From Candidatus Tenderia sp. (GTDB lineage: Bacteria; Pseudomonadota; Gammaproteobacteria; Tenderiales; Tenderiaceae): a stretch of DNA of 60,413 nt. The notes beneath the pieces are model-generated. The model was not told the DNA's origin, did not search any database, and saw nothing but the letters and a program-made list of their open reading frames with translations. The translations under genes were made by a program, and so were the position numbers. The DNA lies in assembly GCA_031416075.1 (NCBI GenBank), contig JANOSY010000008.1, forward strand, positions 1 to 60,413, read 5' to 3'. Below are positions 1-52,938 of the stretch, piece after piece (within the stretch, counting starts at the first letter, position 1; every line of letters starts with the position of its first letter).

Positions 1-2769
1 CGAAGCATATAATTCAGGGTCTTCGTCCATATTGATATTAATGATGTCACGGATTGCGTGTTCAACTTTTGCCGCTTTTGTTTCCTTGCGTTTTATTGCC
101 TTTACATTTTCAAAAAATTTGTCGTCAAGAATGGAAATAGGTTCAATTTTGGTCGTTATTCCTTTTGATTTCAGAAACTCATCTGTTACTTTCCTCAACT
201 TATCCGAAACACCTTTCATGCTCATTCGCCTGTCAAGGAAATGCTGCGATGCCAATGTGTTTATCTCTGCAAAGCGATTCAGGTCTTTCAAATAATTCAA
301 TGCTTCTTTTCTTGGAAACACATTGTCCATTGCTTTTGAAAACTTATTGAATGCCTCTGTAAAATCGTGTCGTATATCTTCATCGTAAAACAAATTGAAA
401 ATATCATCGGGATCGGAATACAAACTGATTCCCTGCCCTGTAAAAACTTTATTGAGTTCTTCGTGTGCCGATTTTAACTCTGCAAATAATTCTGCATTGT
501 CTTTTAAGCAACCTGTAATTTCCTGTTGTTCTTTTTCCCAATAAGCATCCAGCGCTTTTTTCATATGGTTGCCCATGCCTACATAATCTACTACAAAACC
601 AACTTGCTTTTGATCATCATACACACGATTCACACGGGCAATTGCCTGCAACAAATTATGATTCACAACTACTTTGTCTAAATACATCACCTGCTCAATG
701 GGCGCATCAAAGCCAGTCAGCAGCATGTCGCACACCACCAGAAAGGCGATGCCAGAATTAACTTTATCCGGATCATTAAAATCAAATGACTTGCAGAAGT
801 TGTCTACCGCACTCCCGGCCTTGGCCTGTTTGCGCGCCTCGGTAATATAGGCCGCTTCATTGGTGCCATCGCTGGAGATCACCACCGCCGCCTTTAAAAA
901 TCGCACTTTTCTGATCAGCTCAAAATCAGACATAGCGTCGGCCTCCAACGTGCGCACCGTATCGGCAAGCGCCTGATGAATGGCCTGCTGATAACGCACC
1001 GCCGCCAGCTTGGAGTGGCACACCACCTGCGCCTTAAAGCCGCTGGGGAAGATATGTTGCAGATAGTGCTTCACCATATCTTTGGCGATGGCGGCGATAC
1101 GCTGTTCGGCCTCCAGCAGGTCGCCGGTGGCACCGTATTTTTTCTTGATCGCCAGCAGCTCTTCCTCGCTGCGATCTTTAAACAGGTTTTCAAATCGGGT
1201 TTCAAAACCATGTTTGTCGTTCAGCGCGGTATCAGCGGTGCGTCCTTCATACAGAATCTGCAAGGTGGTGCCATCTTCCACCGCATCCATCAAACGGTAG
1301 GTGTCGATATAATCGCCAAAGCGCTTGATAGTCTTCTTCTCGCCGTGGCGCTCGGTAATCAGCGGCGTGCCGGTAAAGGCGATGCGCGCCGCATTGGGAA
1401 AGGCCTCAAAGATGTTATCGCCCAGGTCCGAGCCCTGGGTACGGTGCGCCTCGTCGATCATCAGCACAATGCGCGAAGAGTCATTCACCACGCCGAAGGT
1501 CTGGCTGGTGGGGATAGCCTGATAGGTGCCCAGCGCTTCGGCCACCTTCAGCGGCAGGCTCTGGTCGCACAGCTGGAACTTGTGCACCATCACCATATTG
1601 ATATCAGAACTATCCGTCGCCAGCTGCTCACGCAACGCCTTGCGGCTATCAATGCTGTGCACTCGGCCACCGATCAGGGTGGCGGTGGCGGCGAGTTGCT
1701 CTTCCAGGTCCACCCGGTCATTAATCAGCAGGATCTTGTAATCATTCAGGTCGCGAGAGACGCGCAGCATCCGCGCCACAAATACCATGGTCAGGCTCTT
1801 GCCGGAACCTTGCGTGTGCCAGACCACGCCGCTTTTTTCTTCGGCGGTTTTTCCATTGCGCAGCCGCTCGATGATCTTGTTGGCGGCACGAAACTGCTGA
1901 TAACGGCAGACCACCTTGATGCGCGGTCCACCATCGGTATCCATAAACACCGATGAGGTGCGCAGCATGCTCAGCAGATTGGCCTTATTGAGCATGCCGT
2001 TGATCAGCTGCTGTTGCTGATTCATCCCCTCGGCGACGCTATCGGGCTGCGGCCACTGGGTTTTCCACGGATAATAGTGCTCATCGCCGGAGGTGATGGT
2101 GCCGTAGTCCGCCTCCACACCACTGCTACGGATCAACAGCATGTTGCAATGGAATAGACGCGGCTCCCCCTCTTTCAGCCCCTGCTGCTGGGTCGCCTTG
2201 CGCTGATGGCTATAGCGCTGCAACTGCTCAAAGGCCTCGTTCATCGGGCTGGCGCAGGTCGGCCCACCCTTCTTGCACTCCACCACGATCAGCGGAATGC
2301 CATTCACGAACAGCACAATGTCGGGAATGATGAACTGCTTCACGCAACCCGGCGTGTCGATGAGGAATTGGTTGATGGCGAGAAAGTGGTTGTTGTCAGG
2401 ATTGGCAAAGTCGATCAGCCTCACCACCGGGTCCTGCTCACCAGTGGTTTCGTTCACATCCACCTGCGCCTTGAACAGCAGTTTCTGGATTGCCTCATTG
2501 GCCTCCAGCAACGTGCGATTGGGCTGGCGCAGAATCTGGTCCTGCAGGTCCTGCAGTTGTTTGGCCGTCAGCCATGGCCTCCCATCGGCAGTGGTGTTGA
2601 GTGCGGCGACGGATTTGGCAAACAGCTCCGGCAACAGCCACTGGCGGAAATTCAGCCGCTGGCTTTTACCGGGATCGGAGGGAATCTCCTGCCCCTGGTC
2701 GATAACATCCCAGCCTAAGCTTTGCAACTGCTGCAAGAAAGGCTGTTCGACTTCGGTGTATTCGCTCAT
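1..2769 (-). CDS. hsdR: Type I restriction endonuclease subunit R (3' end beyond the window)
   Basis: Absent from the ORF track because it has no stop in the window. Manual translation from ATG 2769 gives MSEYTEVEQPFLQQLQSLGW..., nuclease motif PDIVLFVNGIPLIVVECK, Walker A WHTQGSGKS, DEAH box, MLLTGFDAP and LLQAIARVNR. Frame checked at both ends. Lies downstream of hsdM/hsdS. Confidence 0.95.
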   Translation of the reverse strand, partial: MSEYTEVEQPFLQQLQSLGWDVIDQGQEIPSDPGKSQRLNFRQWLLPELFAKSVAALNTTADGRPWLTAKQLQDLQDQILRQPNRTLLEANEAIQKLLFKAQVDVNETTGEQDPVVRLIDFANPDNNHFLAINQFLIDTPGCVKQFIIPDIVLFVNGIPLIVVECKKGGPTCASPMNEAFEQLQRYSHQRKATQQQGLKEGEPRLFHCNMLLIRSSGVEADYGTITSGDEHYYPWKTQWPQPDSVAEGMNQQQQLINGMLNKANLLSMLRTSSVFMDTDGGPRIKVVCRYQQFRAANKIIERLRNGKTAEEKSGVVWHTQGSGKSLTMVFVARMLRVSRDLNDYKILLINDRVDLEEQLAATATLIGGRVHSIDSRKALREQLATDSSDINMVMVHKFQLCDQSLPLKVAEALGTYQAIPTSQTFGVVNDSSRIVLMIDEAHRTQGSDLGDNIFEAFPNAARIAFTGTPLITERHGEKKTIKRFGDYIDTYRLMDAVEDGTTLQILYEGRTADTALNDKHGFETRFENLFKDRSEEELLAIKKKYGATGDLLEAEQRIAAIAKDMVKHYLQHIFPSGFKAQVVCHSKLAAVRYQQAIHQALADTVRTLEADAMSDFELIRKVRFLKAAVVISSDGTNEAAYITEARKQAKAGSAVDNFCKSFDFNDPDKVNSGIAFLVVCDMLLTGFDAPIEQVMYLDKVVVNHNLLQAIARVNRVYDDQKQVGFVVDYVGMGNHMKKALDAYWEKEQQEITGCLKDNAELFAELKSAHEELNKVFTGQGISLYSDPDDIFNLFYDEDIRHDFTEAFNKFSKAMDNVFPRKEALNYLKDLNRFAEINTLASQHFLDRRMSMKGVSDKLRKVTDEFLKSKGITTKIEPISILDDKFFENVKAIKRKETKAAKVEHAIRDIININMDEDPELYAS

Positions 2770-22605: not shown

Positions 22606-23645
<1,040 letters not shown>

Positions 23646-23744
23646 AACAACAGACCGCGAAAATTATTAAGCCATAAAACTCCCGCAGAGGCGCTGCTGG
23701 AAGCCGCTAGAAAAAATGGCGTTGCACTTCGAATTTGAATCCGC
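23646..23744 (+). mobile_element. IS30-family 3' remnant
   Basis: Manual translation NNRPRKLLSHKTPAEALLEAARKNGVALRI*, followed by GTTGCACTTCGAATTTGAATCCGC, typical of IS30 C-termini and right ends. Confidence 0.78.
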
Positions 23745-23907
23745 GGATACATCTTTTACTATAAATAAATATTTATCAGCCAACCTTGTTAGCCCTGAAC
23801 GCATCTGCACTCAAACAATTATAGAGGTTCCTTAGCACCAACAGCATCTAACCCATAAAATCAGGCAATCTGTTACGACCCAATCTATCAGCAACAAGTT
23901 CACACCA

Positions 23908-24423
23908 TCAATTAAGTACAATCCACTTAGAATTCGGAACCTCTATTGCTTGTTCGCCTACAAACAAAACCAAATTAGAAAAAACCTCATAACGCCCCGG
24001 TTGTAACAGAACATCCTCATTATCCTTGCCAGACCATTTGGCAGTAAATATTAAAGAGTCATTTGGAGCTATTTTCCCAACAGTCATCGCTTGCATAAAC
24101 ATCATGCCATTATGTTGAGACCAAATCTCCTCTCCTTCTTTTTTAACAATAAATGAGTTTATCGGGGGGGTTGCCTGATAGGCAACATCAACTTCGCTGA
24201 TATTTTTAATATCGAGTTCAAAACTAATTTCATCTCCCACAATAAAAACATCCGCTTCCTGATCAAATTTATCCTTGATCAAAAAATGACTCTTCAGTGG
24301 CGCTGACAAAACATCGCTGTTAGTTGATTGCCTGTTTTGATTTTTTATCTGGCTTGTGTCTGTATATGAACCATCACATCCCATGATGAGCACACTCACT
24401 AATAGAACATATATTCTGCACAT
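23908..24423 (-). CDS. Putative lipoprotein with BsuPI-like Ig-fold domain
   Basis: Lipobox-like LIMGC after a hydrophobic stretch; IWSQHNGMMFMQAM....IAP......WSG.......LQPGRY pattern; RBS GGAGG before ATG 24423. Confidence 0.6.
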   Translation of the reverse strand: MCRIYVLLVSVLIMGCDGSYTDTSQIKNQNRQSTNSDVLSAPLKSHFLIKDKFDQEADVFIVGDEISFELDIKNISEVDVAYQATPPINSFIVKKEGEEIWSQHNGMMFMQAMTVGKIAPNDSLIFTAKWSGKDNEDVLLQPGRYEVFSNLVLFVGEQAIEVPNSKWIVLN

Positions 24424-24461
24424 ATCCCCTCCCAATAATCGTCTAATAAAACGACAATATA

Positions 24462-25211
24462 TCACCTCACTTCAATATTCAACAATCGACTCATCACCCC
24501 GAACGCCCCGATCTGTTTATGCTGCATACGCCATTGGAATGGGTATATACCAACCTCAGAAGGAGCTTGAATATCAAAATTAAATGTCTGAAATCCTTCT
24601 GGCGGAACAGTGATACTAGGCCCCATATCCACCACATCAACAGTCCATGCCAAGTCATTCCCCGTAGTGCTGACAAGTTGATACTGACCAGATGTCCAGA
24701 CTGTTTCACCTATATTTTTAAATTGCAGGGTAGCGTTATAACTCTGCCCAGCCATCATGACCAAAGGCACATCTTGAAAAACAAACTCCGAATGACTCAG
24801 CGGAATAAGTGATCCGACAACATGAACTTTAACCAAACTGGTCTTATCGCCAAAGGCGCTCTGTCCCTGACGCATTTGCCACTGCAACGGATATTCACCC
24901 GGCACCATCGGCGCACTCAGTTTTGGTCTAACTGTTAAAATCTGACCAGGGGCAATACTGCCACCGAATTCCACTCGGTAGCTATCCCATGGCTGCGAAG
25001 TCAATACAAAAAGCGAATAATCACCAGCCGATGACCATGTACTATTACCTGTGTTTTTTACCTGAATAACCGCACTAAACTCTTTGCCTGTCGCCACATG
25101 ATCTGGAACCAGTTGTGTCACTACCTTAGCATCATTCTCCACTGCCAAGGCCAACGACGATGCCAGTACTTGGCCTAACAAGGTGATAAGTAACTTCCTA
25201 AAACAGACCAT
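24462..25211 (-). CDS. Secreted protein with two NBR1-type Ig-like domains
   Basis: Signal peptide (SLALA|VEN); two repeats of KN.G...W...Y.L...AP...G.YP.QW.M. Confidence 0.75.
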   Translation of the reverse strand: MVCFRKLLITLLGQVLASSLALAVENDAKVVTQLVPDHVATGKEFSAVIQVKNTGNSTWSSAGDYSLFVLTSQPWDSYRVEFGGSIAPGQILTVRPKLSAPMVPGEYPLQWQMRQGQSAFGDKTSLVKVHVVGSLIPLSHSEFVFQDVPLVMMAGQSYNATLQFKNIGETVWTSGQYQLVSTTGNDLAWTVDVVDMGPSITVPPEGFQTFNFDIQAPSEVGIYPFQWRMQHKQIGAFGVMSRLLNIEVR

Positions 25212-25388: not shown

Positions 25389-25419
25389 CAATCAAACAAT
25401 CAAACAATCAAACAATCAA
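25389..25419. repeat. 8-bp tandem repeat (CAATCAAA) x ~3.9
   Basis: Directly visible in the intergenic sequence. Confidence 0.85.
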
Positions 25420-25440
25420 TTCGAATCTAAAACCACCCAA

Positions 25441-27591
25441 TTAATAGAATTTCATGACCGTGATAATGAAAAATATCCCCAGTATGCTAGGCCAGTAGAT
25501 AACTTTTGGAATCAACCCATCTTTATAACTAAATATCTTGCTAGGAATTTTTAATGCCACCCTGAATGCATTTATTGGCACAGCCAAAATTGCAAAATAA
25601 ATAACAAAGAATATATATTCCAAATAAAATATCTCTCCAATCGCAATGTTTCTTCGAATCGCCAGATGCGAAAATACGACCACAAAAAACACAGACACAC
25701 AAATTCCAAGAAGCCTGCTAATATCGATGTCCAGTGGCAACAACAATAATGAAAAAAGTATAATTGCCACAACAATTAATGGTGTTAAATTAGAGATGAA
25801 CGCATCAACAAATATGCGCTTAACTCCTATTTCATAATTAAGATAGGGGAATCTTTCCTGATCAAAATTCCGTTCAATACCAAAATTTGTATTTTCATCA
25901 TTACTTTTCAGCATAAAAAACGTGTCTGTTATCTCCCATCCAGGAACAAAAAGATTAACATCCAGCCCCGGTTTTTGTGTTGGCGTTATCATTTTATATG
26001 AAGCGATATCTGGCACCATGAATATATTACGGCTGCTGCTTTGTGGCCGGAGCTGTATTCCTATATGTTCCGTCTCTAGCGGATATCGGGAGTAATCAAA
26101 CTTCGTATTAATCTCTGCTTGAAAACGCCAACGTACCACCTCACTTCTTTCCAGATGACGACGATCTACTTCTACAATTTTTGTGTTTTTAGCACTGGCT
26201 ATCTGGAAACCCTTTTGAATATCACCAGGAAAATTCAAAGGATACTCCTGCCATACCTGCCCTGTTACTGACACAATATTAGAACCATCCAGTTCCATAG
26301 CATCGATATAGATACCGGTTGGAATATAGATTGGCAGAGGCAATGATTTCTTGGCAGTCTCGTCATCATATCGATTCATTAATGTATCCAACACCAATCT
26401 ATCTGACACTTTAACACCAGCATCACTATCTGCTTCACTACCAAAAGCACGTACCTGAGCATGATAAGACAAGGCCAAATTCCACACCACACCAATACCT
26501 GCCAGCAATAGTAACGAAATAAGAACAGAGGCGATCCAGATGCTAACAGACTGCCCCTTGTGAACTCGCAATAACAACATACTCAGACTAGCCAAAAAGA
26601 GAATAACGATAATAGTTATGAAAATAATCTGTTGTCGTAACGTATCAACGTCTACCTGCAGGTCATCTTTAATAAATGTATTTTGCAGTGACCAGCCAGA
26701 AATTGGGATTGGTGCAAATATTAGCCACGATGCCTGCCCGGTCGTGGTACTTACATGATCTATCACTCCAGACTCACCACGCTCTACACGCATAGCAAGC
26801 TCCAATCTATCAGGATCACCTTTCTCATCCGCAATATCCAGAATGCTCTTATGTGACAATACATAACTGCTATTTGGGTGGTAAAGATAGCTTCCATCCC
26901 GTGTTGTTAATGCACCAAATCCACTTGGACCAATATTAAGCGACTCAATGATATTTTTAATCTGCTTCATTGATATATCGATGGTAACAACACCATTTTT
27001 ATACCGCTCACCGTTCGTTGGGTCTATCTTATAAAACAGTGCCGAATAGGTAATCATATAAGTTTTTCCCGCCTCATCCCAATAAGGCTCACTCCAACCG
27101 TTACCATCCTGCATAGGCCTAACATACCAATCATAATCGGGACTAGTGTAATCATATATTTTATCAAGACGACTGTACCTTAATTCACCATTCACTCCCG
27201 ATTTTGAATAATATACGGAATAAAGATTGGTATCAGAAGCGTAACCATAAGGTTTAAAAGTAACGGTTCCGCCATGATAATTTCCATTTATTTCCAATAT
27301 TTTTTTTAGTTCTGAGGCTATGTCTTTCGCCCTAACATCAGCAACCGTGATTCTCTCTGCCAGTCCTTCTGCAGAAGAAATCGCCTGGGCAAGAACTTTA
27401 TTAATTTCAGCCGCCGCAGAAAGTGTTAACCTCTGCAGCTCTTGTTGAGATATTTCATACATATCATTTTTATAGATAACATGCTTATATATTTGAAAGA
27501 CGCCAATCACAAGTGAAATAAGACACATTAACACCAAAACAATTTTTATTTTTCTGGTTGGCACAATAATTAAAATAGAATCGAACCTCAC
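25441..27591 (-). CDS. Membrane protein: periplasmic dCache domain plus pentameric ligand-gated ion channel-like module
   Basis: TM, then YDWY..P.....WSEPYWDEAG...MITYS...GVVTIDIS (Cache), two TMs, a beta-rich domain with G.VW and FDYSRYPLE...PGW.I, and four terminal TM helices. Confidence 0.7.
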   Translation of the reverse strand: MRFDSILIIVPTRKIKIVLVLMCLISLVIGVFQIYKHVIYKNDMYEISQQELQRLTLSAAAEINKVLAQAISSAEGLAERITVADVRAKDIASELKKILEINGNYHGGTVTFKPYGYASDTNLYSVYYSKSGVNGELRYSRLDKIYDYTSPDYDWYVRPMQDGNGWSEPYWDEAGKTYMITYSALFYKIDPTNGERYKNGVVTIDISMKQIKNIIESLNIGPSGFGALTTRDGSYLYHPNSSYVLSHKSILDIADEKGDPDRLELAMRVERGESGVIDHVSTTTGQASWLIFAPIPISGWSLQNTFIKDDLQVDVDTLRQQIIFITIIVILFLASLSMLLLRVHKGQSVSIWIASVLISLLLLAGIGVVWNLALSYHAQVRAFGSEADSDAGVKVSDRLVLDTLMNRYDDETAKKSLPLPIYIPTGIYIDAMELDGSNIVSVTGQVWQEYPLNFPGDIQKGFQIASAKNTKIVEVDRRHLERSEVVRWRFQAEINTKFDYSRYPLETEHIGIQLRPQSSSRNIFMVPDIASYKMITPTQKPGLDVNLFVPGWEITDTFFMLKSNDENTNFGIERNFDQERFPYLNYEIGVKRIFVDAFISNLTPLIVVAIILFSLLLLPLDIDISRLLGICVSVFFVVVFSHLAIRRNIAIGEIFYLEYIFFVIYFAILAVPINAFRVALKIPSKIFSYKDGLIPKVIYWPSILGIFFIITVMKFY

Positions 27592-27684: not shown

Positions 27685-29961
<2,277 letters not shown>

Positions 29962-41800: not shown

Positions 41801-42977
41801 CAGCGGCGGTACCTCGTGAAGACGAGCCAAAAATAGGCCACGCAATAGGTCGATCATCCGACATAACCATCTGCGCTGACGGCAACGTATGTGCTTTAAT
41901 TCGTGTTACATAATTCAGTTCGTGCTCTGGTGATATTAAAGTATCACGCTCAAGATAGAGTGTATTAACGATACTGACACGGGCGTCGGTTACCGTCAGC
42001 ATGTTATCTGCCAGATAGATAATATCCTGAAGCTTCTGGTCCTTTCCTGCGCTAAACTCCATACCTTGTGGAATCACAACAGTACTGCTGTTACCTTCTG
42101 TGGTGAAAAGCAAATGGGCACTATCCGGCACCCGCTCACGGACCACTGCATGCAGTACCTGTCCATAATAAAAGTCCAGATGGCGTTGGGTAAAGCTATT
42201 TATCCTATTCTGCAAACACCGGAACAGTTGCAAAAAAGTAATGAACAGCCCCAACGCTGGATCATGGCTCTGGCTCTTTAAACTTGCATCCAGTGCCGCT
42301 GCAGCCATCTCTTTTAATTGGCTTATGCCATTCAAAAGTGAATAGAAAGCAGTACGCAGTACCATGTCAAGCTTTGCACTATCCTGCATTGAAAAATAGC
42401 GGGCACGTGAAAATGAGTAACCCTGTTCGAGTTTCACAACGCCCCACTCCAAAGAGAACTGCTCATAATCAATAGACACAGTAGCAACACCTTCTGTGCG
42501 CAGATGCTCTGCTATCGTCGCTATGTCATGAAGGTTATCTGCCAACCGCGTACTAATCATCGCGGCTAATTTTTTACCCAGCATTACTCCTGAGTCATGT
42601 TCCGCCAATTTTAGCCGTTGATGCCAACGGTCAATCTCTCTGATCAACATTAAGAGAATCGCCACACGTTCGGTATAGTCCTGTTCTCTATAACGCAGAT
42701 ATTCCGATTCACTGCGACCCGTATCTTTACTCAGGATAAGCGCCATAATCACCGCCTCATCCCGCATAAACAGCTCACCCCAATGACCATTTTCTTTATT
42801 TTCAAGGTCATAAAAGCGCAGTACGGATGCAAGCTCTGACGAGAACGCCAGCATCTTTTCAAAACCCAGCTCATCGACATTAAAATAATCAGTCATCAAT
42901 GCAATGGGTAAGCGGTGCTCCTGATCAGGACCATCCCCCGTCATCAAATCCTGCCAGTTATTAATAGTGATGCTCAT
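38862..42977 (-). CDS. eCIS baseplate J/gp47-like protein (Afp11-like)
   Basis: DPALGLFITFL.L......N.FTQRHLDFYY..VL; RMSERLRHKQRA...WDYEHLV...FP. Confidence 0.9.
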   Translation of the reverse strand: MSITINNWQDLMTGDGPDQEHRLPIALMTDYFNVDELGFEKMLAFSSELASVLRFYDLENKENGHWGELFMRDEAVIMALILSKDTGRSESEYLRYREQDYTERVAILLMLIREIDRWHQRLKLAEHDSGVMLGKKLAAMISTRLADNLHDIATIAEHLRTEGVATVSIDYEQFSLEWGVVKLEQGYSFSRARYFSMQDSAKLDMVLRTAFYSLLNGISQLKEMAAAALDASLKSQSHDPALGLFITFLQLFRCLQNRINSFTQRHLDFYYGQVLHAVVRERVPDSAHLLFTTEGNSSTVVIPQGMEFSAGKDQKLQDIIYLADNMLTVTDARVSIVNTLYLERDTLISPEHELNYVTRIKAHTLPSAQMVMSDDRPIAWPIFGSSSRGTAAGAAENATLGFAVASSVLMLKEGRRKITLTITLDDPVNLGMGLAAFRDYMSANVAATDASDQTEKLFIHLFSHFLSLEARPTDRVERIRQADRAKALTATVAITQLQEIASGDINVQRSLIYKLYLLACLQCSDSEVRFMRYFGRIFSRYLLSQQQWLDEDQKQIIMASARQLLSIESSTVIHDLLSQDRSTLFYKLTKQMFNITLTTEKGWHQLTDCIVTPAFALANHIENGCQIVMMLGPDVEPIIPCDKKIHGDKWRTVLPVMQLHVNPRANFYPYSLFDEFLFKEIKIEVDVEGVRNILGYNSYGQVDISKPFNPFGPIPNVSAYFSFGSHEVAIKNIQYMRINVEWGGLPRGKGGFTSHYDGYDDVYYNGGFFADIAVLQNGRWWPEQGDKKYQTPLFESELMSDHLSEIRHLNISVLSYAKPISAAVSEDEFSLNSKSRSGLYRLMLAGATDPFGYSSYSALLTRILSQNSRSKKPKPIPNPPYVPLINQMTLNYRASSIIGVDIVTSVDDDVVDKFFHLHPFGIERIETTMIEAGCPLLPTYHHDGHLHIGLSATNINGLITLFFDLSEDSLRTIINHAPELHWSYLANNRWHPLIQSELVADTTNGFLSSGIITLNLPDEISKENTIMPKGFYWLRVSSSGELSAFCNLRAVHTHALRVRRSDNSESSGGVIRAWQPMSSITGLGKITQIGAVLAGRQYEDSIQLKVRMSERLRHKQRATTAWDYEHLVMEHFPSVFKVKCFSHMNSANKNPRPGHLLVVVVPYLLDSEKDGCSASMINAVELEKIALYVRQLSSSFATIEVRNPVYERIQVRCTVKFRNSQLNGLYTTRLDNDITNYICPWKKSGYQAKFGWAIRSEDIESYIRTLDYVDYVTNFSMLHITEEGCDSFVLGDTARSTMAYKPGDDVAWSPLLGVDNDDRITPSYPWSLAVPTRNHYIETINKIRHIDAEPTGIGEIEIGSTFIINGTHRCG

Positions 42978-43007
42978 GCGACCCTACCTGGAACATTGGC
43001 TGTGCAA

Positions 43008-43433
43008 TTAGAGACGAACATTGGACCCTTCAAGCATATAGAATGGGTAGACAATATTACTGCGGGTATTGGTTGTCCTAATGGTGTAGTCCAGCTTAAC
43101 TTTGATCACACCATCATAGATCTCCTCATCATCCACCTCGACGCTGTTAACGCTAATCCGCGGTTCAAAAAAGAGCACAGCTCTTTCAACCACATCTTTA
43201 ATCTCTGTGACTGTGCTCTCGTTAATATGTTCGAATACCAATGACTTCAAACGGCAACCATAAGAGGGGTTCATCACCCGTTCACCAGGTGCGGTGGAAA
43301 ACAAAATATTCAAACTTTGACGAATATCTTCATCTTCAGTCACCATTTGCGCTCCTTTATTACGGTTGCTGAACTCAGGAGGAAATGACCAGCCTTTACC
43401 CAAAAACGCTTTATCAAGTGTCTCATTTACCAT
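43008..43433 (-). CDS. GPW/gp25-family baseplate protein (Afp9-like)
   Basis: FLGKGWSFPPEF, DIRQSL.IL..T.PGERVM.P.YG, FEPRI, TNTRSNIVYPFY. Confidence 0.93.
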   Translation of the reverse strand: MVNETLDKAFLGKGWSFPPEFSNRNKGAQMVTEDEDIRQSLNILFSTAPGERVMNPSYGCRLKSLVFEHINESTVTEIKDVVERAVLFFEPRISVNSVEVDDEEIYDGVIKVKLDYTIRTTNTRSNIVYPFYMLEGSNVRL

Positions 43434-43437
43434 TTTA

Positions 43438-43737
43438 TTACCCCCCTATTATCACTGTTGGGCAACCTAATACCACCGTACCACCATGTGCAGTAGTATC
43501 ACCCAATCTAGCCGCTGGCTTACCTCCTATCATCACTGTCATTGACCCTTTCACAATAGTGTCTGGTGGACCAACACATACACAGCTATCACCCACCACA
43601 GCAGCAGGCAACTTGCCAATCAGCACTGTTGGCACACCGGGTCCCACCACTGGCCCACCTACATGGGGGATAGGAGGGAGCCCCGGCGTCACCATCGGAC
43701 AGACATGCATATCAGTGATTCTGGAAGCAGGTGGCAT
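43438..43737 (-). CDS. PAAR spike-tip protein (Afp10-like)
   Basis: MPPASRITDMHVCP, GKLPAAVVGD, GGKPAARLGD..AHGG. Confidence 0.95.
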   Translation of the reverse strand: MPPASRITDMHVCPMVTPGLPPIPHVGGPVVGPGVPTVLIGKLPAAVVGDSCVCVGPPDTIVKGSMTVMIGGKPAARLGDTTAHGGTVVLGCPTVIIGG

Positions 43738-43771
43738 TTATCTATCCTTGCTTGTCATAACAACAATCGTA

Positions 43772-45562
43772 TCAATTAATCATTACCATCGCGCCCTTTA
43801 CCGTCGTCTGCCCCGAGGCAGAGAGCTCAGCAGAGGCGCTGCCCTTAGCAACAAAACCGATTTTTGCGGTGTGATTAACATTCATTCCCTCAACGGCCAC
43901 ATCTGCTTTTGAGGTCATACGAATTGTACCTACCGCATCAATCGTTACCTTGCCCTTGGCACTAATTTTAATATCCTTGGGACTATCAAGCACAATACCA
44001 TCCGGACCCAGCTCAACTTTATTATCATTCTGATCCTGCAACAGAATAGATTTATCCTTATCGCTGATAATAACTCTGTTATTTTCCGGCGTGGTCAATG
44101 TGATCACCTTATTTTCATCATCAAACTCCAGCTTTAAATTACTTTTAGTCACCAATGCTTTAATAAAATTATCCGCTGTTAATTCATATGGGGGCTTGCG
44201 GCTACTACTATAAAGACTACCCAGTATTACAGGACTAGAGGGATCGTTATTAAAATAGCCCAATACAACCTCATCACCAATCTCCGGCACAAAAAAAGCA
44301 CCTATACCAAGTGAACCATAAAAACTCAATAACCGCGCCCATACTCCTTCCGTTGTCGCCTGCATAACCGGCACGGTCACCTGTACTTTGTACTGCCCGT
44401 CAGGGTCTTCATCGAGTTTTTTAACCACCCCTATCTGTAAACCCTCAACACCTGGCAAAATACCAGCCGCCGCCGGAGCAACCACATCAGGCTGGTCAGT
44501 TAACCACTCTGGAGACATGCCAAATTCAGCCTCAGTAATCCAATTTCCATTGGCAATTTCATGCTTGACTGCCGTGGTAAAAACAGCCCCATTAAATCGC
44601 TTGCCAACCCCCTCCAGTTCAATCAAGGATCCTGGCAATGCCTTGGCACTGCCTTGAAATTTCATACGGCCACAAATACGCGACAGGCCTGCTTTAAGCT
44701 GCTGACCACCCGCCCACTGCTTAAGTGCCGCTTTATCCATCGGCGCAACGGTTTGAAGACGGAACGATTTCAGATCAATAACTCCGGCCAATGTGGCCGA
44801 GTCAAGATCTCCTTGTTCATTAAGCGTTGCTGGACCAACCGGCTCTTCAATCACCGCTTGAGTTTTTACATCCCATGAGACTCCCTTCACTTCAGCAAGC
44901 TGATGTCGGGAATCCAGATCGGCTTGAAACTCAATCAGGTCAGCGCCATAGGTAACTTTAAGCTCTGCGGCAATACTCATCTGTGGTGGCTTAACAGTCA
45001 CCTTACCTGCAGCCACACTTACCAACAGACCATTCACTTCAGCGCGCGACAACATGAAATCCCAATCGGTACAGTAATACTGCACCAGCTCTTTATACTC
45101 AATCGTGGTTGCCTCCACATCAGTGGTAAGACCGGCATAATTTGAGATCAGAGCAGTGATAACGTCACTATCTTTTGAATCAATATAATTGGCATTTTTG
45201 CGCCCCACCGTCATTGCTACCGCCTTATCACGGCACTCTATTACCAGACGAGACTCATTATCCCCCAATACTTTAATGCCATGTTTAATCACTACACCTT
45301 CAAAAATGGTATTTTCATCCGCATCGTAACCGGCGTTAATTTTGATAGCTGCACCTGGTTTAAACGTATCTTCATTGCTAAGCGGAAAATCCTGACCAGG
45401 CATATCACCATCCAAAACCACAATTTTAGCGGATGGAATTTTATTTAATATATTTTTAACTGAAACAGAGACAATCTGGATCGTCTCATCCAGTTGCTGT
45501 CCATCACTAAAAAGCGTTAACTTAATAGCACCACTGCTACCAACGCTGGGAGAGTCGGCCAT
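43772..45562 (-). CDS. vgrG: VgrG-like central spike (Afp8-like)
   Basis: QYYCTDWDFMLSRAE, GLQIGVV...DP, WARL...G.FFVPEIGDEV..G...DP..PVILGSLY, terminal KGAMVMIN. Confidence 0.93.
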   Translation of the reverse strand: MADSPSVGSSGAIKLTLFSDGQQLDETIQIVSVSVKNILNKIPSAKIVVLDGDMPGQDFPLSNEDTFKPGAAIKINAGYDADENTIFEGVVIKHGIKVLGDNESRLVIECRDKAVAMTVGRKNANYIDSKDSDVITALISNYAGLTTDVEATTIEYKELVQYYCTDWDFMLSRAEVNGLLVSVAAGKVTVKPPQMSIAAELKVTYGADLIEFQADLDSRHQLAEVKGVSWDVKTQAVIEEPVGPATLNEQGDLDSATLAGVIDLKSFRLQTVAPMDKAALKQWAGGQQLKAGLSRICGRMKFQGSAKALPGSLIELEGVGKRFNGAVFTTAVKHEIANGNWITEAEFGMSPEWLTDQPDVVAPAAAGILPGVEGLQIGVVKKLDEDPDGQYKVQVTVPVMQATTEGVWARLLSFYGSLGIGAFFVPEIGDEVVLGYFNNDPSSPVILGSLYSSSRKPPYELTADNFIKALVTKSNLKLEFDDENKVITLTTPENNRVIISDKDKSILLQDQNDNKVELGPDGIVLDSPKDIKISAKGKVTIDAVGTIRMTSKADVAVEGMNVNHTAKIGFVAKGSASAELSASGQTTVKGAMVMIN

Positions 45563-51066: not shown

Positions 51067-52938
51067 TTAAACTTTAAAATGGGCAACCAATTGCTGTAAC
51101 TCAGCAGCCAACTGAGCCAACTCATCACTACTTGCTGCGGTCTTTTCTGCAGCGGCGGCAGAAAAACCGGCCAGATCATTAACACTCACAATATTCTTAT
51201 TGACCTCTTCTGATACGGCGCTCTGCTCTTCCGCCGCCGCCGCTATCTGCTCATTCATTGAAACAATCGTACCTACTGCAGCAGTAATCGTGATCAATGC
51301 CTGCTCCGCATTACCTGCTTTCTCCATGCTCTCTTGCGCTGCGGCATGGCCACCCGCCATCGTTTTTACGGCATTGGCCGCACTCGATTGAAGTCGCTCA
51401 ACAATCTTACGAATCTCCAACGTTGAGGCCTGTGTCCGACTCGCCAAACTACGCACCTCATCAGCAACCACAGCAAAACCACGCCCCATCTCGCCGGCAC
51501 GGGCCGCTTCAATAGCCGCATTCAACGCCAACAGATTGGTCTGTTCCGCAATATCACGTATGACACCCAAGACCGTTCCAACACTCGTGGCATCGGCCTC
51601 AAGCGTGCCAATCACATGGCTTGCCCGCTCAACCTCCAGCGCAAGATGTTTCATGGCCTTAATGGATTCACTCACAATGTTACGTCCTTGAGAAGCGACC
51701 TCATCAGCCTCCTGTGCTGCCGCAGCAGCAGTTGTGGCATTGTTTGCAACATCAGCGGCGGTCGCTGACATTTCGTTCACTGCAGCGGCCATTTGATTGC
51801 TCTCATGTTGCTGCTGGTTGGCCGCATTCCGGGTCTCTTCAGTCACCGCCGCCAATTTTTTAGCCGCTGCGGCCAATGCCACTGAATTACTAGAAATGGA
51901 CGTCACTTGATCACGTAGCTTTTGCACTAACGTTGCTAGCGCACCGCCAAACATTACAAGCTCACTAAGCCCGCTGCTCTCCACGTTAATACTCAAATCA
52001 CCTTCAGCCGTCTGTCCCATCTGACTTAACAACACTTTCATAGGTGCAAATAGATGGCGTGATAACAACCAAAGACTAATGCCTATACAAACCAACATAA
52101 GAATAATAAAAGCTACAACAATAAGGGTACGAGTCTTAGAGAGGTCATCATAAAAGCCTTGCATATCCTCTAGCATAACCAGCTTGAGCATAGGCTCCTC
52201 TTCAGACGACATCAGCTCATACTCAATGGGAAGGGTAGTGGGACTCTGCTTCTCTTTCCACCCTTCACTCTGGAAAATCTGTTTCCCGCCATTGTCCAAA
52301 ATAGTCAACGGAAGATTAATAATATCTGCCACATCCACCAGGTTATGGGCTGGATTTACTACCAACTCAAGATAACCATTCACAGCCAAACCACCCAAAG
52401 GGGTCAACACAGAAAACATCGCCCCCTGTTCTGACATCCAGAGTGTGCTTAAAGCTTTGAGTCGATCAGAGCCTTCCCGAGGCTGAGCCTTATCAAGTAT
52501 CAATTTTGGCAGCCCCGCAGGTAAACCCACAGCACCTTCCTGGCTCTCCATTATCAGATTAAAATTGAGGTCATATGCCCGCAACTTCTTTACATCTAAA
52601 ATACCTGCTGTCACAAAACGTTGATGGAACTGTTGATTCAATGCTGTTGCCAACTCGTTTTTAGCCGTCTCATCCGAAGAGTCACGAACAAACACTGAGA
52701 ACGGCGAACTCACCTCACTCTTGGCACCACGTCCCATATCCAACACATTAGCCTCCAACACATCCATGGACTGCCGCGCCGAAAGTGCCACAATACGAGA
52801 CAACGTCTGTTCCTGGGACAAAAGGGCTGCATCCCTGAACAGGGATGCACTAATCACTGATAACGAAATGGCACATACACCCAAAAATACCAGCAGGGTT
52901 ACAGTAAGTTGTTTGATTGAAATATGACCGCTCGACAT
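51067..52938 (-). CDS. Methyl-accepting chemotaxis protein
   Basis: Two TMs, [41 protein letters not shown]. Confidence 0.95.

What the first reader, a model, noticed from the sequence alone, without database searches (positions are those of the whole stretch)
25441..27591. Cache-fused pentameric ligand-gated ion channel-like gene at the end of a contractile injection operon
Seen: a dCache sensor, two extra TMs, a beta-sandwich with a Pro-loop-like FDYSRYPLE, and four TMs with the M1 proline (NLTPLI) and a post-M2 FYLEY. Known: prokaryotic pLGICs (ELIC/GLIC family) are sporadic, some carry Cache domains, and their physiological roles are mostly unknown. The dCache has Y..WY and Y.D...D residues reminiscent of amino-acid/amine-binding Cache domains. 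Inference: a chemosensory channel co-oriented 93 bp behind the eCIS-linked gene could couple a host or prey cue to ion flux and CIS deployment.
Basis: partly seen in the sequence, partly recalled or inferred. Interest (0 to 1): 0.75.

Follow-up and report, generated by a model that had tools for sequence, protein, structure and literature searches.

The report
Cache-fused ion channel beside injection machine
This gene encodes a bacterial relative of neurotransmitter-gated ion channels fused to a chemical-sensor domain, and in one lineage it is consistently encoded next to a membrane-associated phage-tail-like injection machine, which makes it a candidate for that machine's unknown trigger.

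Summary
Window 25441..27591 (-) is an intact 716-aa gene under strong purifying selection. It encodes TM1, a periplasmic dCache_1 sensor, a two-helix membrane hairpin, and a complete pentameric-ligand-gated-ion-channel (pLGIC) module. The evidence is an AlphaFold model with TM-score 0.71-0.73 to GLIC, profile hits to GLIC, an invariant Pro-loop proline, the pre-M1 Arg and the M1 Pro.

Cache-fused prokaryotic pLGICs were already described in silico in 2004, so the architecture is not new. Pfam does not recognise the channel half of this large family (1570 representative clusters).

New here:
- The adjacent 758-aa gene is a homologue of SalCis20, the inner-membrane peptidoglycan-hydrolase protein of the membrane-associated SalCIS.
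- The window's sheath is a close SalCIS relative.
- 13 of 78 homologous loci carry CIS structural genes and 6 more carry only CIS-associated accessory genes. All 16 CIS-linked loci placed on the tree fall in one clade spanning Gammaproteobacteria and Bacteroidota, and the channel co-diverges with the SalCis20-like gene there.
- Related loci add one or two further pLGIC paralogues.

Most of the family is not CIS-linked. Functional coupling to the injection machine is inferred from synteny only. The Cache pocket lacks the amino-acid-binding arginine and looks amine-type.

The parts
25441..27591 (-). Complete gene for the 716-aa dCache-fused pLGIC (called T in this report; protein P0001)
   Evidence: ORF and translation. 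GAGGTG upstream of the GTG start. dN/dS 0.071 against L006. AlphaFold model with pLDDT 82.9 and pTM 0.69.
27472..27558 (-). TM1 (about residues 12-40), an N-terminal membrane anchor that continues into the Cache stalk helix
   Evidence: Helix 12-82 in the model. Hydrophobic window 5-40.
26686..27465 (-). Periplasmic dCache_1 sensor (residues 43-302)
   Evidence: Pfam PF02743 at E 2.5e-16, above its cut-off. PDB 3lic at E 2e-12 for the single sequence and 7.2e-24 for the profile. Foldseek to 3lic gives TM-score 0.81. Pocket residues Y148, W155, Y156, W166, Y170 and D205 are conserved in 50-62 of 62 sequences.
26467..26649 (-). Two-helix transmembrane hairpin (residues 315-375). It returns the chain to the periplasm before the channel's extracellular domain.
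   Evidence: Helices 315-340 and 348-375. Hydrophobic windows. W370 is invariant; W352, A373 and L374 are nearly invariant in 62 sequences.
25816..26415 (-). pLGIC extracellular beta-sandwich domain (residues 393-592). It carries the Pro-loop Y503-P504, the loop-B G551-W552 and the pre-M1 R592.
   Evidence: Strands 421-592. The profile aligns LDYSRYPLE on GLIC LDFRRYPFD and PGW on GLIC TGW. Y503, P504, G551 and W552 are present in 62 of 62 sequences. R592 is R in 58 and K in 4.
25447..25812 (-). pLGIC transmembrane domain M1-M4 (residues 594-715) with a short M3-M4 loop
   Evidence: Four helices at 594-617, 624-648, 651-680 and 693-715. Foldseek matches whole GLIC chains. M1 P604 is present in 58 of 62 sequences. 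H642, R646, Y656 and E658 are invariant.
27685..29961 (-). Upstream neighbour (758 aa): a SalCis20-like inner-membrane protein with a PG-binding-like N-terminus, a Pro-Ala/Pro-Glu linker, a GH18/SleL-like domain and C-terminal TM helices
   Evidence: PDB 9r9a_B at E 4.8e-19 for the single sequence and 5.5e-31 for the profile. hhalign to the GH18-bearing Bacteroidota counterpart gives 94% probability. 9R9A is identified as SalCis20 in PMC13266070.
29970..50583 (-). SalCIS-type contractile injection gene cluster. In order of transcription: Pvc16_N cap, 315-aa ORF, sheath, two gp19 tube genes, CIS_tube, spike, baseplate genes, tape measure, AAA ATPase.
   Evidence: Pfam hits. The sheath matches the SalCIS sheath 9r9h at E 3e-210 over its full length.
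23908..25211 (-). Two small downstream co-oriented genes (NBR1-type Ig-like, 249 aa; BsuPI-like, 185 aa) that end the low-GC island
   Evidence: Pfam. Both are conserved downstream of T in L006; only the Ig-like gene is also found in L028. GC rises from about 0.38 to above 0.5 at roughly 23,600-23,850.

Best explanation
What it is. The gene encodes a seven-helix inner-membrane protein. It is a prokaryotic pentameric ligand-gated ion channel subunit: a beta-sandwich extracellular domain plus M1-M4. Its N-terminus carries a periplasmic double-Cache sensor, joined to the channel through an extra transmembrane hairpin.

How it most likely works (inferred):
- It assembles as a pentamer.
- It binds a small amine-like periplasmic ligand in the membrane-distal Cache pocket, which has an aromatic cage plus D205 and no carboxylate-binding Arg.
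- It converts that binding into opening or modulation of a probably cation-conducting pore. The Cache signal would reach the channel through the TM2-TM3 hairpin packed against the channel's transmembrane domain, through Cache-to-extracellular-domain contacts, or both.

Role in this lineage. The channel belongs to the accessory module of a SalCIS-type, inner-membrane-associated contractile injection system. It is encoded directly after the SalCis20-like membrane peptidoglycan hydrolase. Its most likely role there is to supply a chemical input (local ion flux, depolarisation or a conformational signal) to anchoring, cell-wall remodelling or firing of that machine.

Shown: fold, domain order, conserved motifs, purifying selection, and conserved co-diverging synteny.

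Inferred: pentamer, ligand class, ion selectivity, and any coupling to the CIS.

My confidence is about 0.95 for the identity as a Cache-pLGIC and about 0.4 for a functional link to the CIS. The overall figure reflects the combined statement.
For: Identity:
- dCache_1 is above the Pfam cut-off.
- The AlphaFold model has pLDDT 82.9. Its N-half matches 3lic (TM-score 0.81) and its C-half matches whole GLIC chains (TM-score 0.70-0.73, E about 2e-10).
- Family profiles hit GLIC chains at E 4.6e-5 to about 1e-3, with the Pro-loop, loop-B GW and pre-M1 Arg in register.
- P504, Y503 and W552 are invariant in 62 of 62 sequences. R592 is R58/K4. P604 is present in 58 of 62.
- dN/dS is 0.071.

Ligand class:
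- The alignment to PctB places Y148, W155, Y156, Y170 and D205 on PctA Y121, W128, Y129, Y144 and D173. PctA R126 corresponds to Y153. Arg is not among the four commonest residues at that position in 62 sequences.
- 3lib is reported as a methylamine binder (PMC10589655). The family profile matches it over the whole sensor at E 1.4e-17.

Cation lead: position 623, at the cytoplasmic mouth of M2, is D or E in 55 of 62 sequences. The profile alignment places it near GLIC E222.

CIS link:
- The gene is co-oriented 93 nt behind a SalCis20 homologue. It lies inside one low-GC island with the CIS genes.
- The sheath matches the SalCIS sheath at E 3e-210.
- Of 78 homologous loci, 13 hold CIS structural genes and 6 more hold only SalCis20-like, DUF4157 or TPR accessory genes.
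- Of 45 loci with at least 5 kb upstream and a called gene, 11 have tape measure, AAA or baseplate-region genes upstream in the same order.
- All 16 CIS-linked tree rows, the window's included, fall in one 26-row clade (SH-aLRT 90) holding Bacteroidota and Gammaproteobacteria.
- The SalCis20-like tree shows the same four groups.
- In L003 the channel pair sits on the 5' side of a CIS operon instead.
- SalCIS activation conditions are stated to be unknown (PMC13266070, section 14).
Against: - Most of the family is not CIS-linked. The 35 tree rows outside the clade show no CIS gene. Inside the clade, L012, L015, L026, L037 and L057 have 5-10 kb upstream without CIS structural genes.
- Negative loci were tested only with the window's own CIS proteins (tblastn and phmmer) and with Pfam or PHROGs on cluster representatives. 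Divergent CIS genes could have been missed, and flanks stop at 10 kb.
- On the tree the linkage is compatible with a single origin followed by co-inheritance, so it counts as few independent events.
- Geller et al. found dCache_1 7 times in eCIS operons (odds ratio 0.81, q = 1) and Neur_chan_LBD 0 times (supplementary table).
- The window itself lacks the second pLGIC gene (c1), the TPR gene and any DUF4157 gene that accompany the channel in most linked loci.
- No promoter or terminator signal beyond chance bears on co-transcription.
- Pfam Neur_chan models do not match.
- The Asp after the Pro-loop proline is Glu in 54 of 62 sequences.
- The M2 register, and hence the pore lining and selectivity, is uncertain.
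- The five-fold symmetry of a pLGIC does not obviously match a six-fold baseplate.
Confidence: 0.45

Rival explanations
1. Passenger sensor. The protein is a genuine Cache-gated ion channel that serves the cell's general chemosensing or ion homeostasis. It merely travels inside the same horizontally acquired island as the CIS, with no functional coupling.
For: - About three quarters of the loci show no CIS gene within 10 kb.
- Other family members pair with unrelated partners. Peripla_BP_6 proteins lie next to the channel in 6 of 7 loci of that cluster. An unknown 360-aa protein lies directly downstream in 8 loci. GGDEF response regulators occur in 12 loci.
- PBP partners were already noted for prokaryotic LGICs in 2004 (PMC549065).
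- The gene has its own ribosome-binding site after a 93-nt gap.
- dCache_1 is not enriched in eCIS operons in Geller's table.
- The linkage may be one ancestral event.
Against: - The linkage persists over divergence to about 40% identity and across two phyla. The gene order is the same: tape measure, then the SalCis20-like gene, then DUF4157 or TPR genes, then the channel, then the second pLGIC.
- The channel and the SalCis20-like gene show the same tree groups.
- The channel is embedded between CIS accessory or effector genes rather than at the island edge in L005, L007, L008 and L011.
- L023 keeps a DUF4157 gene directly upstream even without CIS structural genes in view.
Confidence: 0.35
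2. Non-conducting scaffold. The pLGIC module has been recruited as a pentameric membrane platform or adaptor that helps dock or organise the CIS at the inner membrane. The Cache domain would be a regulatory or structural periplasmic element and ion flow would play no role.
For: - SalCIS-type systems are proposed to be inner-membrane associated and to use membrane proteins encoded in the operon (PMC13266070).
- A membrane protein, CisA, is required for firing of the Streptomyces CIS (PMC12237407; title and start of abstract seen in the listing).
- M2 carries unusual invariant residues (F635/F636, H642, R646) whose role in a pore is unclear.
Against: - M2, the M2-M3 junction, the Pro-loop and the pre-M1 Arg are the gating elements of pLGICs. 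They are the most conserved parts of the protein across CIS-linked and unlinked members alike. This argues for a conserved channel or gating function that predates recruitment.
- Five-fold versus six-fold symmetry mismatch.
- No interaction was tested.
Confidence: 0.07
3. Effector-related protein. The gene lies in the 3' region where CIS cargo is usually encoded. It could be a delivered pore-forming toxin or an immunity protein.
For: - It sits after the AAA ATPase, where cargo genes usually lie (PMC8213781).
- It is adjacent to DUF4157 (eCIS_core) genes in related loci.
Against: - A 716-aa protein with seven membrane helices and a periplasmic sensor is built for insertion into the producer's own inner membrane.
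- The family is mostly found without any CIS.
- It has no DUF4157 domain of its own.
- It has no adjacent toxin in the window.
Confidence: 0.03

Closest known systems
MCP-N/Cache-fused prokaryotic ligand-gated ion channels predicted by Tasneem, Iyer, Jakobsson and Aravind 2004 (PMC549065; passages read)
   Same: The domain logic is the same: an N-terminal Cache-type sensor ahead of the ligand-binding domain and a 4-TM channel. It has a patchy distribution across distant prokaryotes (they list Methanosarcina, Cytophaga and Microbulbifer). [quoted passage not shown] Cellvibrionaceae members of the present family exist (L023, L026).
   Different: They describe the extra domains as lying between a signal peptide and the ligand-binding domain. 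The passages I read do not mention a transmembrane hairpin or a link to contractile injection systems. They proposed a chemotaxis role.
GLIC (Gloeobacter proton-gated channel) and other solved prokaryotic pLGICs
   Same: Same whole-chain fold (TM-score 0.70-0.73). The Pro-loop, loop-B GW, pre-M1 Arg, M1 Pro and short M3-M4 loop are in register.
   Different: Foldseek identity is only 16-19%. Pfam Neur_chan models do not match. Glu replaces Asp after the Pro-loop proline. There are three extra TM helices and a 260-residue Cache sensor. M2 has an F-F-V-x-V-F-S-H motif.
DeCLIC (Desulfofustis pLGIC with an N-terminal domain; PMC9897478, passages read)
   Same: A multidomain prokaryotic pLGIC in which an extra periplasmic N-terminal domain is thought to modulate gating.
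   Different: The DeCLIC N-terminal domain is two jelly-roll lobes joined directly to the extracellular domain. It is not a Cache sensor separated from the channel by a membrane hairpin. No CIS context is mentioned in the passages read.
Amine-sensing dCache_1AM domains (for example the M. mazei sensor 3LIB; PMC10589655, passages read)
   Same: The aromatic pair, the Tyr equivalent to PctA Y144 and the Asp equivalent to D173 are conserved. The carboxylate-binding Arg is absent. The profile matches 3lib over its full length at E 1.4e-17.
   Different: The full AM_motif is defined in a figure I could not see, so membership is not established. The output module here is an ion channel. The passages I read describe dCache_1AM in kinases, chemoreceptors, second-messenger (cyclic-nucleotide) enzymes and phosphatases, and 'ion channel' occurs 0 times in the main text.
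SalCIS and its membrane protein SalCis20 (PMC13266070; passages and sections 10 and 14 read)
   Same: The window's sheath (E 3e-210) and the 758-aa neighbour (E 4.8e-19 to 9r9a) are homologues of SalCIS parts. The cluster is therefore of the proposed inner-membrane-associated subtype.
   Different: The word 'channel' occurs 0 times in that paper's main text. Its supplementary operon tables could not be opened.
CisA, the membrane protein required for firing of the Streptomyces coelicolor CIS (PMC12237407; only title and start of abstract seen)
   Same: A precedent for a membrane protein encoded with a cytoplasmic CIS that is needed for its function and firing.
   Different: No sequence comparison with CisA was made here.

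Membership tests
pLGIC (Pro-loop receptor) superfamily | Extracellular beta-sandwich followed by four transmembrane helices M1-M4 | tested here: met
   AlphaFold secondary structure. Foldseek to whole GLIC chains gives TM-score 0.70-0.73 and E about 2e-10.
pLGIC (Pro-loop receptor) superfamily | Loop-7 (Pro-loop) proline, the one residue reported as absolutely conserved in the superfamily (PMC4795631) | tested here: met
   P504 is present in 62 of 62 family sequences. It aligns on the proline of GLIC's YPFD.
pLGIC (Pro-loop receptor) superfamily | Asp two residues after that proline, paired with a conserved pre-M1 Arg | tested here: inconclusive
   The position is E in 54, D in 7 and M in 1 of 62 sequences. 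The pre-M1 position 592 is R in 58 and K in 4. The acidic/basic pair is kept but Asp is mostly replaced by Glu. The stand-alone paralogue in L002, L005, L007 and L008 has YPFD.
pLGIC (Pro-loop receptor) superfamily | Conserved proline in M1 and aromatic loop-B residue | tested here: met
   P604 is present in 58 of 62 sequences. G551-W552 is present in 62 of 62 and aligns to GLIC TGW. That these are family hallmarks is from my own knowledge.
pLGIC (Pro-loop receptor) superfamily | Match to the curated family models (Pfam Neur_chan_LBD / Neur_chan_memb) | tested here: not met
   No hit at E <= 1. Homology is seen only with family profiles against solved pLGICs (E 4.6e-5 to about 1e-3) and marginally with the single sequence (E 0.028).
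pLGIC (Pro-loop receptor) superfamily | Pentameric assembly around a central pore | not tested
Five copies exceed the tool's size limit.
pLGIC (Pro-loop receptor) superfamily | Ligand-gated ion conduction | not testable with these tools
   Needs electrophysiology or flux assays.
dCache_1 extracytoplasmic sensors | Double PDC (Cache) fold flanked by membrane helices | tested here: met
   Pfam PF02743 scores 60.4 bits against a cut-off of 45. Foldseek to 3lic gives TM-score 0.81. Flanking helices are at 12-82 and 315-340.
dCache_1AA (universal amino-acid sensor) | Arg equivalent to PctA R126, which binds the ligand carboxylate (PMC10589655) | tested here: not met
   The aligned position is Y153. 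Its four commonest residues are Y43, H5, F4 and T2 of 62; Arg is not among them.
dCache_1AM (amine sensor) | AM_motif: shared aromatic pair, Asp equivalent to D173, hydrophobic and Ser positions, R103/D133 insertion | tested here: inconclusive
   The shared positions are conserved: W155 in 61 of 62, Y156 as Y50/F12, Y170 in 60 of 62, D205 in 60 of 62, M179 in 53 of 62, T181 in 59 of 62. The full motif is defined in a figure I could not see, and the insertion was not checked.
Accessory gene of a SalCIS-type contractile injection system | Encoded co-oriented within the CIS cluster, next to the SalCis20 homologue | tested here: met
Accessory gene of a SalCIS-type contractile injection system | Linkage conserved in homologues beyond close relatives | tested here: met
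   13 of 78 loci have CIS structural genes and 6 more have accessory genes only. All 16 linked rows, the window's included, fall in one 26-row clade spanning two phyla. The linkage is not met for the rest of the family.
Accessory gene of a SalCIS-type contractile injection system | Co-transcription and functional or physical interaction with CIS parts | not testable with these tools
   The consensus scans are uninformative: 22 promoter-like sites against 23.3 expected, and 8 terminator-like sites against 6.4 expected.

The most novel reading that the evidence does not exclude
In SalCIS-type, inner-membrane-associated contractile injection systems of Gammaproteobacteria and Bacteroidota, a dedicated set of pentameric ligand-gated ion channels forms the missing activation sensor. 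The set comprises the Cache-fused subunit found here plus one or two stand-alone paralogues in related loci. A periplasmic amine-like cue would open the channel. The resulting local ion flux or depolarisation would license peptidoglycan remodelling by the SalCis20-like protein and anchoring or firing of the machine. This would be the first physiological role for a prokaryotic pLGIC and the first chemical trigger for a contractile injection system.
Probability: 0.27. Interest if true: 0.85.

Novelty: new variant of a known kind. Interest (0 to 1): 0.62.

Why it matters
Prokaryotic pLGICs such as GLIC and ELIC are the structural models for human neurotransmitter receptors. The role of extra N-terminal domains is called unclear in the DeCLIC papers.

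A channel family that is conserved, co-diverging and embedded among the accessory genes of exactly this CIS subtype gives both fields a concrete hypothesis that can be tested genetically. It also supplies a defined ligand-binding domain to screen.

Apart from any CIS link, the work shows that a large pLGIC subfamily is invisible to Pfam's channel models. It has 1570 representative clusters, seven TM helices and a Cache sensor, and the source names seen are 'hypothetical' or 'cache domain-containing protein'.

Tried and rejected
- Pfam on the channel half gave no Neur_chan hit at E <= 1. NCBIfam gave nothing meaningful for the protein.
- The partner clusters c1, c9 and c11 were tested for mutual homology by hhalign and none was found (probabilities 0.1-0.6). 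c9 and c11 are also unrelated to the channel module.
- I planned a Pfam/PHROGs scan of all 410 remaining neighbour proteins of the CIS-negative loci. The first batch exceeded the residue limit. I dropped the plan as too costly for what it would add. Negative loci therefore rest on tblastn and phmmer with the window's CIS proteins and on cluster representatives.
- PHROGs on the unknown neighbours of the Desulfobulbales-type loci found no phage-tail-like protein, only an endolysin-like PG-binding protein.
- Consensus promoter and terminator scans, and folding of the 246-nt stretch downstream of the gene, were uninformative. No tRNA genes were found in the window.
- tblastn against the plasmid collection gave only partial, distant matches and no CIS context.
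- Complex prediction (two copies of the channel module): the queue was full at every attempt, so the job never ran.
- A Pfam call that included window 42977-43780 was rejected for in-frame stops and was not repeated.
- Literature searches for a printed link found nothing relevant. 'Pentameric ligand-gated ion channel' + Cache + prokaryotic returned 4 papers, none relevant by title or abstract. 'Extracellular contractile injection' + 'ligand-gated ion channel' returned 0. eCIS + 'Cache domain' returned 0. The terms Cache, ion channel, ligand-gated, membrane protein and chemotaxis each occur 0 times in the main text of PMC11297309.
- A toxin or immunity reading was considered and rejected on topology and family distribution.


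Full report
OBSERVATION. Window 25441..27591 (minus strand) is one uninterrupted ORF of 716 codons with a GTG start. GAGGTG lies about 6 nt upstream. The motifs it quoted are present: FDYSRYPLE at residues 498-506, NLTPLI at 601-606 and FYLEY at 655-659. The gene is real and constrained. Its closest relative (locus L006, 84% identity) differs mainly at synonymous sites, with dN/dS 0.071.

THE SENSOR HALF. Pfam finds dCache_1 at residues 43-302 (E 2.5e-16, 60.4 bits against a cut-off of 45). A profile of 62 family members (A1) matches solved Cache sensor domains: 3lic at 7.2e-24, 3lib at 1.4e-17, and PctA/PctB at about 2e-12. The AlphaFold model superposes on 3lic with TM-score 0.81.

In the profile alignment to PctB, family positions Y148, W155, Y156, Y170 and D205 fall on PctA Y121, W128, Y129, Y144 and D173. 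These are conserved in 50-62 of 62 sequences. The position of PctA R126 is Tyr here; its four commonest residues are Y43, H5, F4 and T2, and Arg is not among them. [quoted passage not shown] The same paper reports 3LIB as a methylamine binder. I therefore read the pocket as amine-type rather than amino-acid-type. The paper defines the full amine motif in a figure I could not see, so this remains a lead.

THE CHANNEL HALF. Pfam's Neur_chan models do not match at E <= 1. The single sequence reaches a GLIC/GABA-A chimera only at E 0.028. Profiles do better. A1 hits GLIC chains at 4.7e-5 to about 2e-3. A profile of the last 340 residues of 55 sequences (A2) hits 69 distinct pLGIC sequences at E <= 0.01, the best at 4.6e-5.

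The printed alignment puts LDYSRYPLE on GLIC's LDFRRYPFD (the Pro-loop). It puts PGW on GLIC's TGW (loop B). It puts the Lys-Arg before M1 on GLIC's pre-M1 Ser-Arg.

The AlphaFold model built on A1 has mean pLDDT 82.9 and pTM 0.69. It shows one helix, a beta-rich domain (strands 421-592) and four helices at 594-617, 624-648, 651-680 and 693-715. Foldseek aligns this half with whole GLIC chains at TM-score 0.70-0.73 over about 320 columns (E about 2e-10). Y503, P504, G551 and W552 are invariant. R592 is R58/K4 and M1 P604 is present in 58 of 62. One departure is that the acidic residue after the proline is Glu in 54 and Asp in 7 of 62. A feature-based atlas search of residues 377-716 also lists clusters partly annotated Neur_chan_LBD, at scores of 0.90-0.91.

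TOPOLOGY. Hydrophobic windows and model helices give seven membrane spans: TM1 (about 12-40), TM2 and TM3 (315-340, 348-375), and M1-M4. With the Cache domain and the channel's extracellular domain both periplasmic, the TM2-TM3 hairpin is what makes the fusion topologically possible. The hairpin is conserved across the family (W370 invariant; W352, A373 and L374 nearly so). M2 and the start of M3 are the most conserved stretch of the protein: C631, F635, F636, V637, F640, H642, I645, R646, I649, F655, Y656, L657, E658 and Y659. Position 623, at the cytoplasmic mouth of M2, is Asp or Glu in 55 of 62. The profile alignment places it next to GLIC's E222. This is a lead for cation selectivity. The M2 register is uncertain, so I do not assign pore-lining residues.

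HOW COMMON, AND WHAT IS IN PRINT. The word-indexed search found 161 homologues (E <= 0.001) and listed the 120 best, mostly about 700 aa. All listed ones carry PF02743, and the few source names seen are 'hypothetical protein' or 'cache domain-containing protein'. The exhaustive search with the channel half found 1570 representative clusters at E <= 0.001, 806 of them at <= 1e-30. Most listed representatives are about 700 aa, with some of 300-400 aa.

The architecture is not new. Tasneem et al. (2004) described bacterial and archaeal LGICs fused to MCP-N plus Cache domains in Methanosarcina, Cytophaga and Microbulbifer. They also described operons with periplasmic binding proteins and proposed a chemotaxis role (PMC549065, passages). 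Jaiteh et al. (2016) deliberately trimmed such extra domains and noted that these associations are known only at the genome level (PMC4795631, passages). The only multidomain prokaryotic pLGIC with a structure is stated to be DeCLIC, whose N-terminal domain is of a different fold (PMC9897478, passages). None of the passages I read mentions the extra membrane hairpin.

THE NEIGHBOURHOOD IN THE WINDOW. Upstream on the same strand lies a full contractile-injection cluster: Pvc16_N, sheath, two gp19 tube genes, CIS_tube, spike, baseplate genes, a 1425-aa CIS_TMP and an AAA ATPase. The sheath matches the SalCIS sheath (PDB 9r9h) at E 3e-210 over its whole length, ahead of AlgoCIS and the Anabaena system.

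The 758-aa gene directly upstream of the channel matches PDB 9r9a chain B at E 4.8e-19. The match includes the C-terminal membrane region. A profile of 13 homologues reaches 5.5e-31. 9R9A is SalCis20, an inner-membrane homodimer with three TM helices and a SleL-like hydrolase domain. Its authors propose that it helps SalCIS associate with the inner membrane. [quoted passage not shown]

The channel, the SalCis20-like gene, two small downstream genes and the CIS genes share one low-GC island (about 0.31-0.48, against about 0.5-0.58 in most flanking windows), which ends near 23,600-23,850.

COMPARATIVE GENOMICS. One scan of the species-representative genome collection returned 78 loci with up to 10 kb on each side. 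I called ORFs crudely and clustered them. I searched the loci with the window's CIS proteins and annotated cluster representatives.

- CIS structural genes occur in 13 of 78 loci: L002, L003, L004, L005, L006, L007, L013, L014, L017, L018, L020, L031 and L053.
- Four further loci with short flanks (L008-L011) carry only the SalCis20-like, TPR or DUF4157 accessory genes.
- L023 and L024 carry only a DUF4157 (eCIS_core) gene. All 9 tested members of that cluster have PF13699.
- Among the 45 loci with at least 5 kb upstream and a called channel gene, 11 have tape-measure, AAA or baseplate-region genes upstream in the same order as the window.
- Five loci had no channel gene in my crude calls and show no CIS hit.

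The four Prolixibacteraceae (Bacteroidota) loci have this order: tape measure, a GH18-bearing SalCis20-like protein, DUF4157 gene(s), the channel, and a second pLGIC. The GH18-bearing protein relates to the window's neighbour family at hhalign probability 94%.

On a maximum-likelihood tree of 61 channel proteins, all 16 linked rows (the window's included) lie in one 26-row clade (SH-aLRT 90). That clade is made of a Bacteroidota branch and a mostly gammaproteobacterial branch. The other 35 rows have none. Within the clade, four unlinked rows have under 2.1 kb upstream and cannot be judged. L012, L015, L023, L026, L037 and L057 can be judged and lack structural genes. A tree of the SalCis20-like proteins shows the same four groups, so the two genes have been inherited together. 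In L003 the channel pair lies about 5.4 kb upstream of the 5' end of a CIS operon (Pvc16_N, a 259-aa ORF, sheath), with a sigma-54 activator between them. This is a different arrangement of the same linkage.

MORE CHANNELS IN THE LINKED LOCI.
- The gene directly downstream of the channel in 17 loci (c1, about 367 aa, no Pfam hit) is itself a pLGIC. hhalign to the channel profile gives 97.4% (E 1.3e-11, 213 columns). Its profile hits GLIC and GABA-A chains at down to 2e-9. NCBIfam LIC matches at E 1e-5, below cut-off. Its AlphaFold model is weak (pLDDT 64) but has the right secondary-structure order.
- Five loci also carry a third paralogue of about 385 aa, without Cache, 31-34% identical to the channel half. 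In four of the five it has a canonical YPFD loop.
- The window has neither of these, nor any DUF4157 or TPR companion.

EVIDENCE AGAINST A FUNCTIONAL LINK.
- Most of the family is unlinked and has other neighbours: Peripla_BP_6 proteins, an unknown 360-aa protein, GGDEF regulators, and DUF2589 proteins with an endolysin-like PG-binding protein.
- The linkage is compatible with one origin.
- Geller et al.'s enrichment table lists dCache_1 7 times in eCIS operons (odds ratio 0.81, q = 1) and Neur_chan_LBD 0 times. One listed operon (Candidatus Tenderia electrophaga) has a 2085-nt dCache_1 gene right after a DUF4157 gene, unremarked.
- Promoter and terminator scans are at chance level.

MECHANISM. 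Shown: the fold, topology, conserved gating elements, conserved Cache pocket, and conserved co-diverging synteny with a SalCIS-type cluster.

Inferred: a pentameric, probably cation-conducting channel that is gated or modulated by an amine-like periplasmic ligand. The Cache signal would pass through the TM2-TM3 hairpin or through periplasmic contacts. In this lineage the channel would act as a chemical input to the membrane-associated injection machine.

A precedent for a membrane protein being required for CIS firing exists in Streptomyces (CisA, PMC12237407; only title and start of abstract seen). I put the identity at about 0.95 and the functional link at about 0.4. The main rival is a passenger sensor (0.35).

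NOVELTY. My three literature searches for a printed link between pLGIC or Cache proteins and contractile injection systems found nothing relevant. The main texts of PMC8213781, PMC11297309 and PMC13266070 do not mention one. I class the finding as a new variant of a known kind. The Cache-pLGIC fusion is known. The seven-helix form, its invisibility to Pfam's channel models, the multi-paralogue clusters and the SalCIS-type context are new.

LEFT OPEN.
- Supplementary files of PMC13266070 could not be opened, and figures are not held.
- The oligomer prediction never ran because the queue was full at all 14 attempts.
- Model coordinates are not exposed, so pore geometry and Cache-channel contacts could not be inspected.

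Noticed in passing
L004:12099-13199 and the same position in 16 other loci (L001-L003, L005, L007-L011, L013, L017, L018, L020, L031, L053, L063); absent from the window: The gene directly downstream of the Cache-pLGIC (about 367 aa, no Pfam hit) is a second, divergent stand-alone pLGIC. hhalign gives 97.4% and its profile hits PDB pLGICs down to 2e-9. This suggests heteromeric or paired channels in the CIS-linked clade.
   Followed up: yes
L002:8574-9755, L005:13957-15126, L007:13894-15066, L008:8094-9236, L011:6959-8104: A third pLGIC paralogue (about 385 aa, no Cache). It has a canonical YPFD Pro-loop in four of the five loci (NYDLYPFD in L011). It lies among DUF4157 effector-type genes, a methyltransferase and an Omp85/TamA-like gene.
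   Followed up: partly
window 27685-29961 (-): The SalCis20-like neighbour has a long Pro-Ala then Pro-Glu dipeptide repeat linker (residues about 231-286) between a PG-binding-like N-terminal region and the GH18/SleL-like domain.
   Followed up: partly
window 51067-52938 (-) and 53585-55225 (-): Two methyl-accepting chemotaxis protein genes lie immediately upstream of the first CIS gene (Pvc16_N), inside the low-GC island. L004 also has an MCP gene just after the channel pair. Geller's tables show MCPsignal next to afp16 in Shewanella denitrificans.
   Followed up: no
window about 25390-25420 (intergenic, downstream of the channel gene): A short tandem run of GATTGTTT units (about four copies on the gene's strand) lies in the 229-nt gap before the next gene. 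The gap as a whole is not more structured than shuffles (z = +1.07).
   Followed up: no
window about 23,850-56,000: A low-GC island (0.31-0.48, against about 0.5-0.58 in most flanking windows) holds the MCP genes, the CIS cluster, the SalCis20-like gene, the channel and two small genes. No tRNA gene is in the window.
   Followed up: partly
window 23908-25211 (-): Two small genes lie downstream of the channel: an NBR1-type Ig-like protein with a signal peptide, and a BsuPI (protease-inhibitor fold) protein with a lipoprotein-like N-terminus. Both are conserved after the channel in L006; the Ig-like gene alone is also found in L028. They replace the second pLGIC seen elsewhere.
   Followed up: no
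L003:523-12503: Here the channel pair lies on the 5' side of a CIS operon. It is separated from Pvc16_N and the sheath by a TPR-PDZ protein, a sigma-54-dependent activator and a PEP-CTERM protein.
   Followed up: partly
L025, L043, L044, L046, L047, L049, L062 (Desulfobulbales-type loci): In most of these loci the channel follows a conserved block of two DUF2589 proteins, an endolysin-like PG_binding_1 protein and several unknown small proteins. In all seven, and in L052, an unknown 360-aa protein follows it. No phage-tail-like genes were detected. A peptidoglycan-binding neighbour thus recurs in a second, CIS-free context.
   Followed up: partly
L063:726-4275: The channel gene is split by an IS200-like (Y1_Tnp) transposase gene, with the second pLGIC still downstream.
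   Followed up: no
L065, L066, L068, L075, L077 (directly downstream) and L076 (upstream, opposite strand): Distant members of the family pair with a Peripla_BP_6 periplasmic binding protein. This echoes the PBP operons noted for prokaryotic LGICs in 2004.
   Followed up: no
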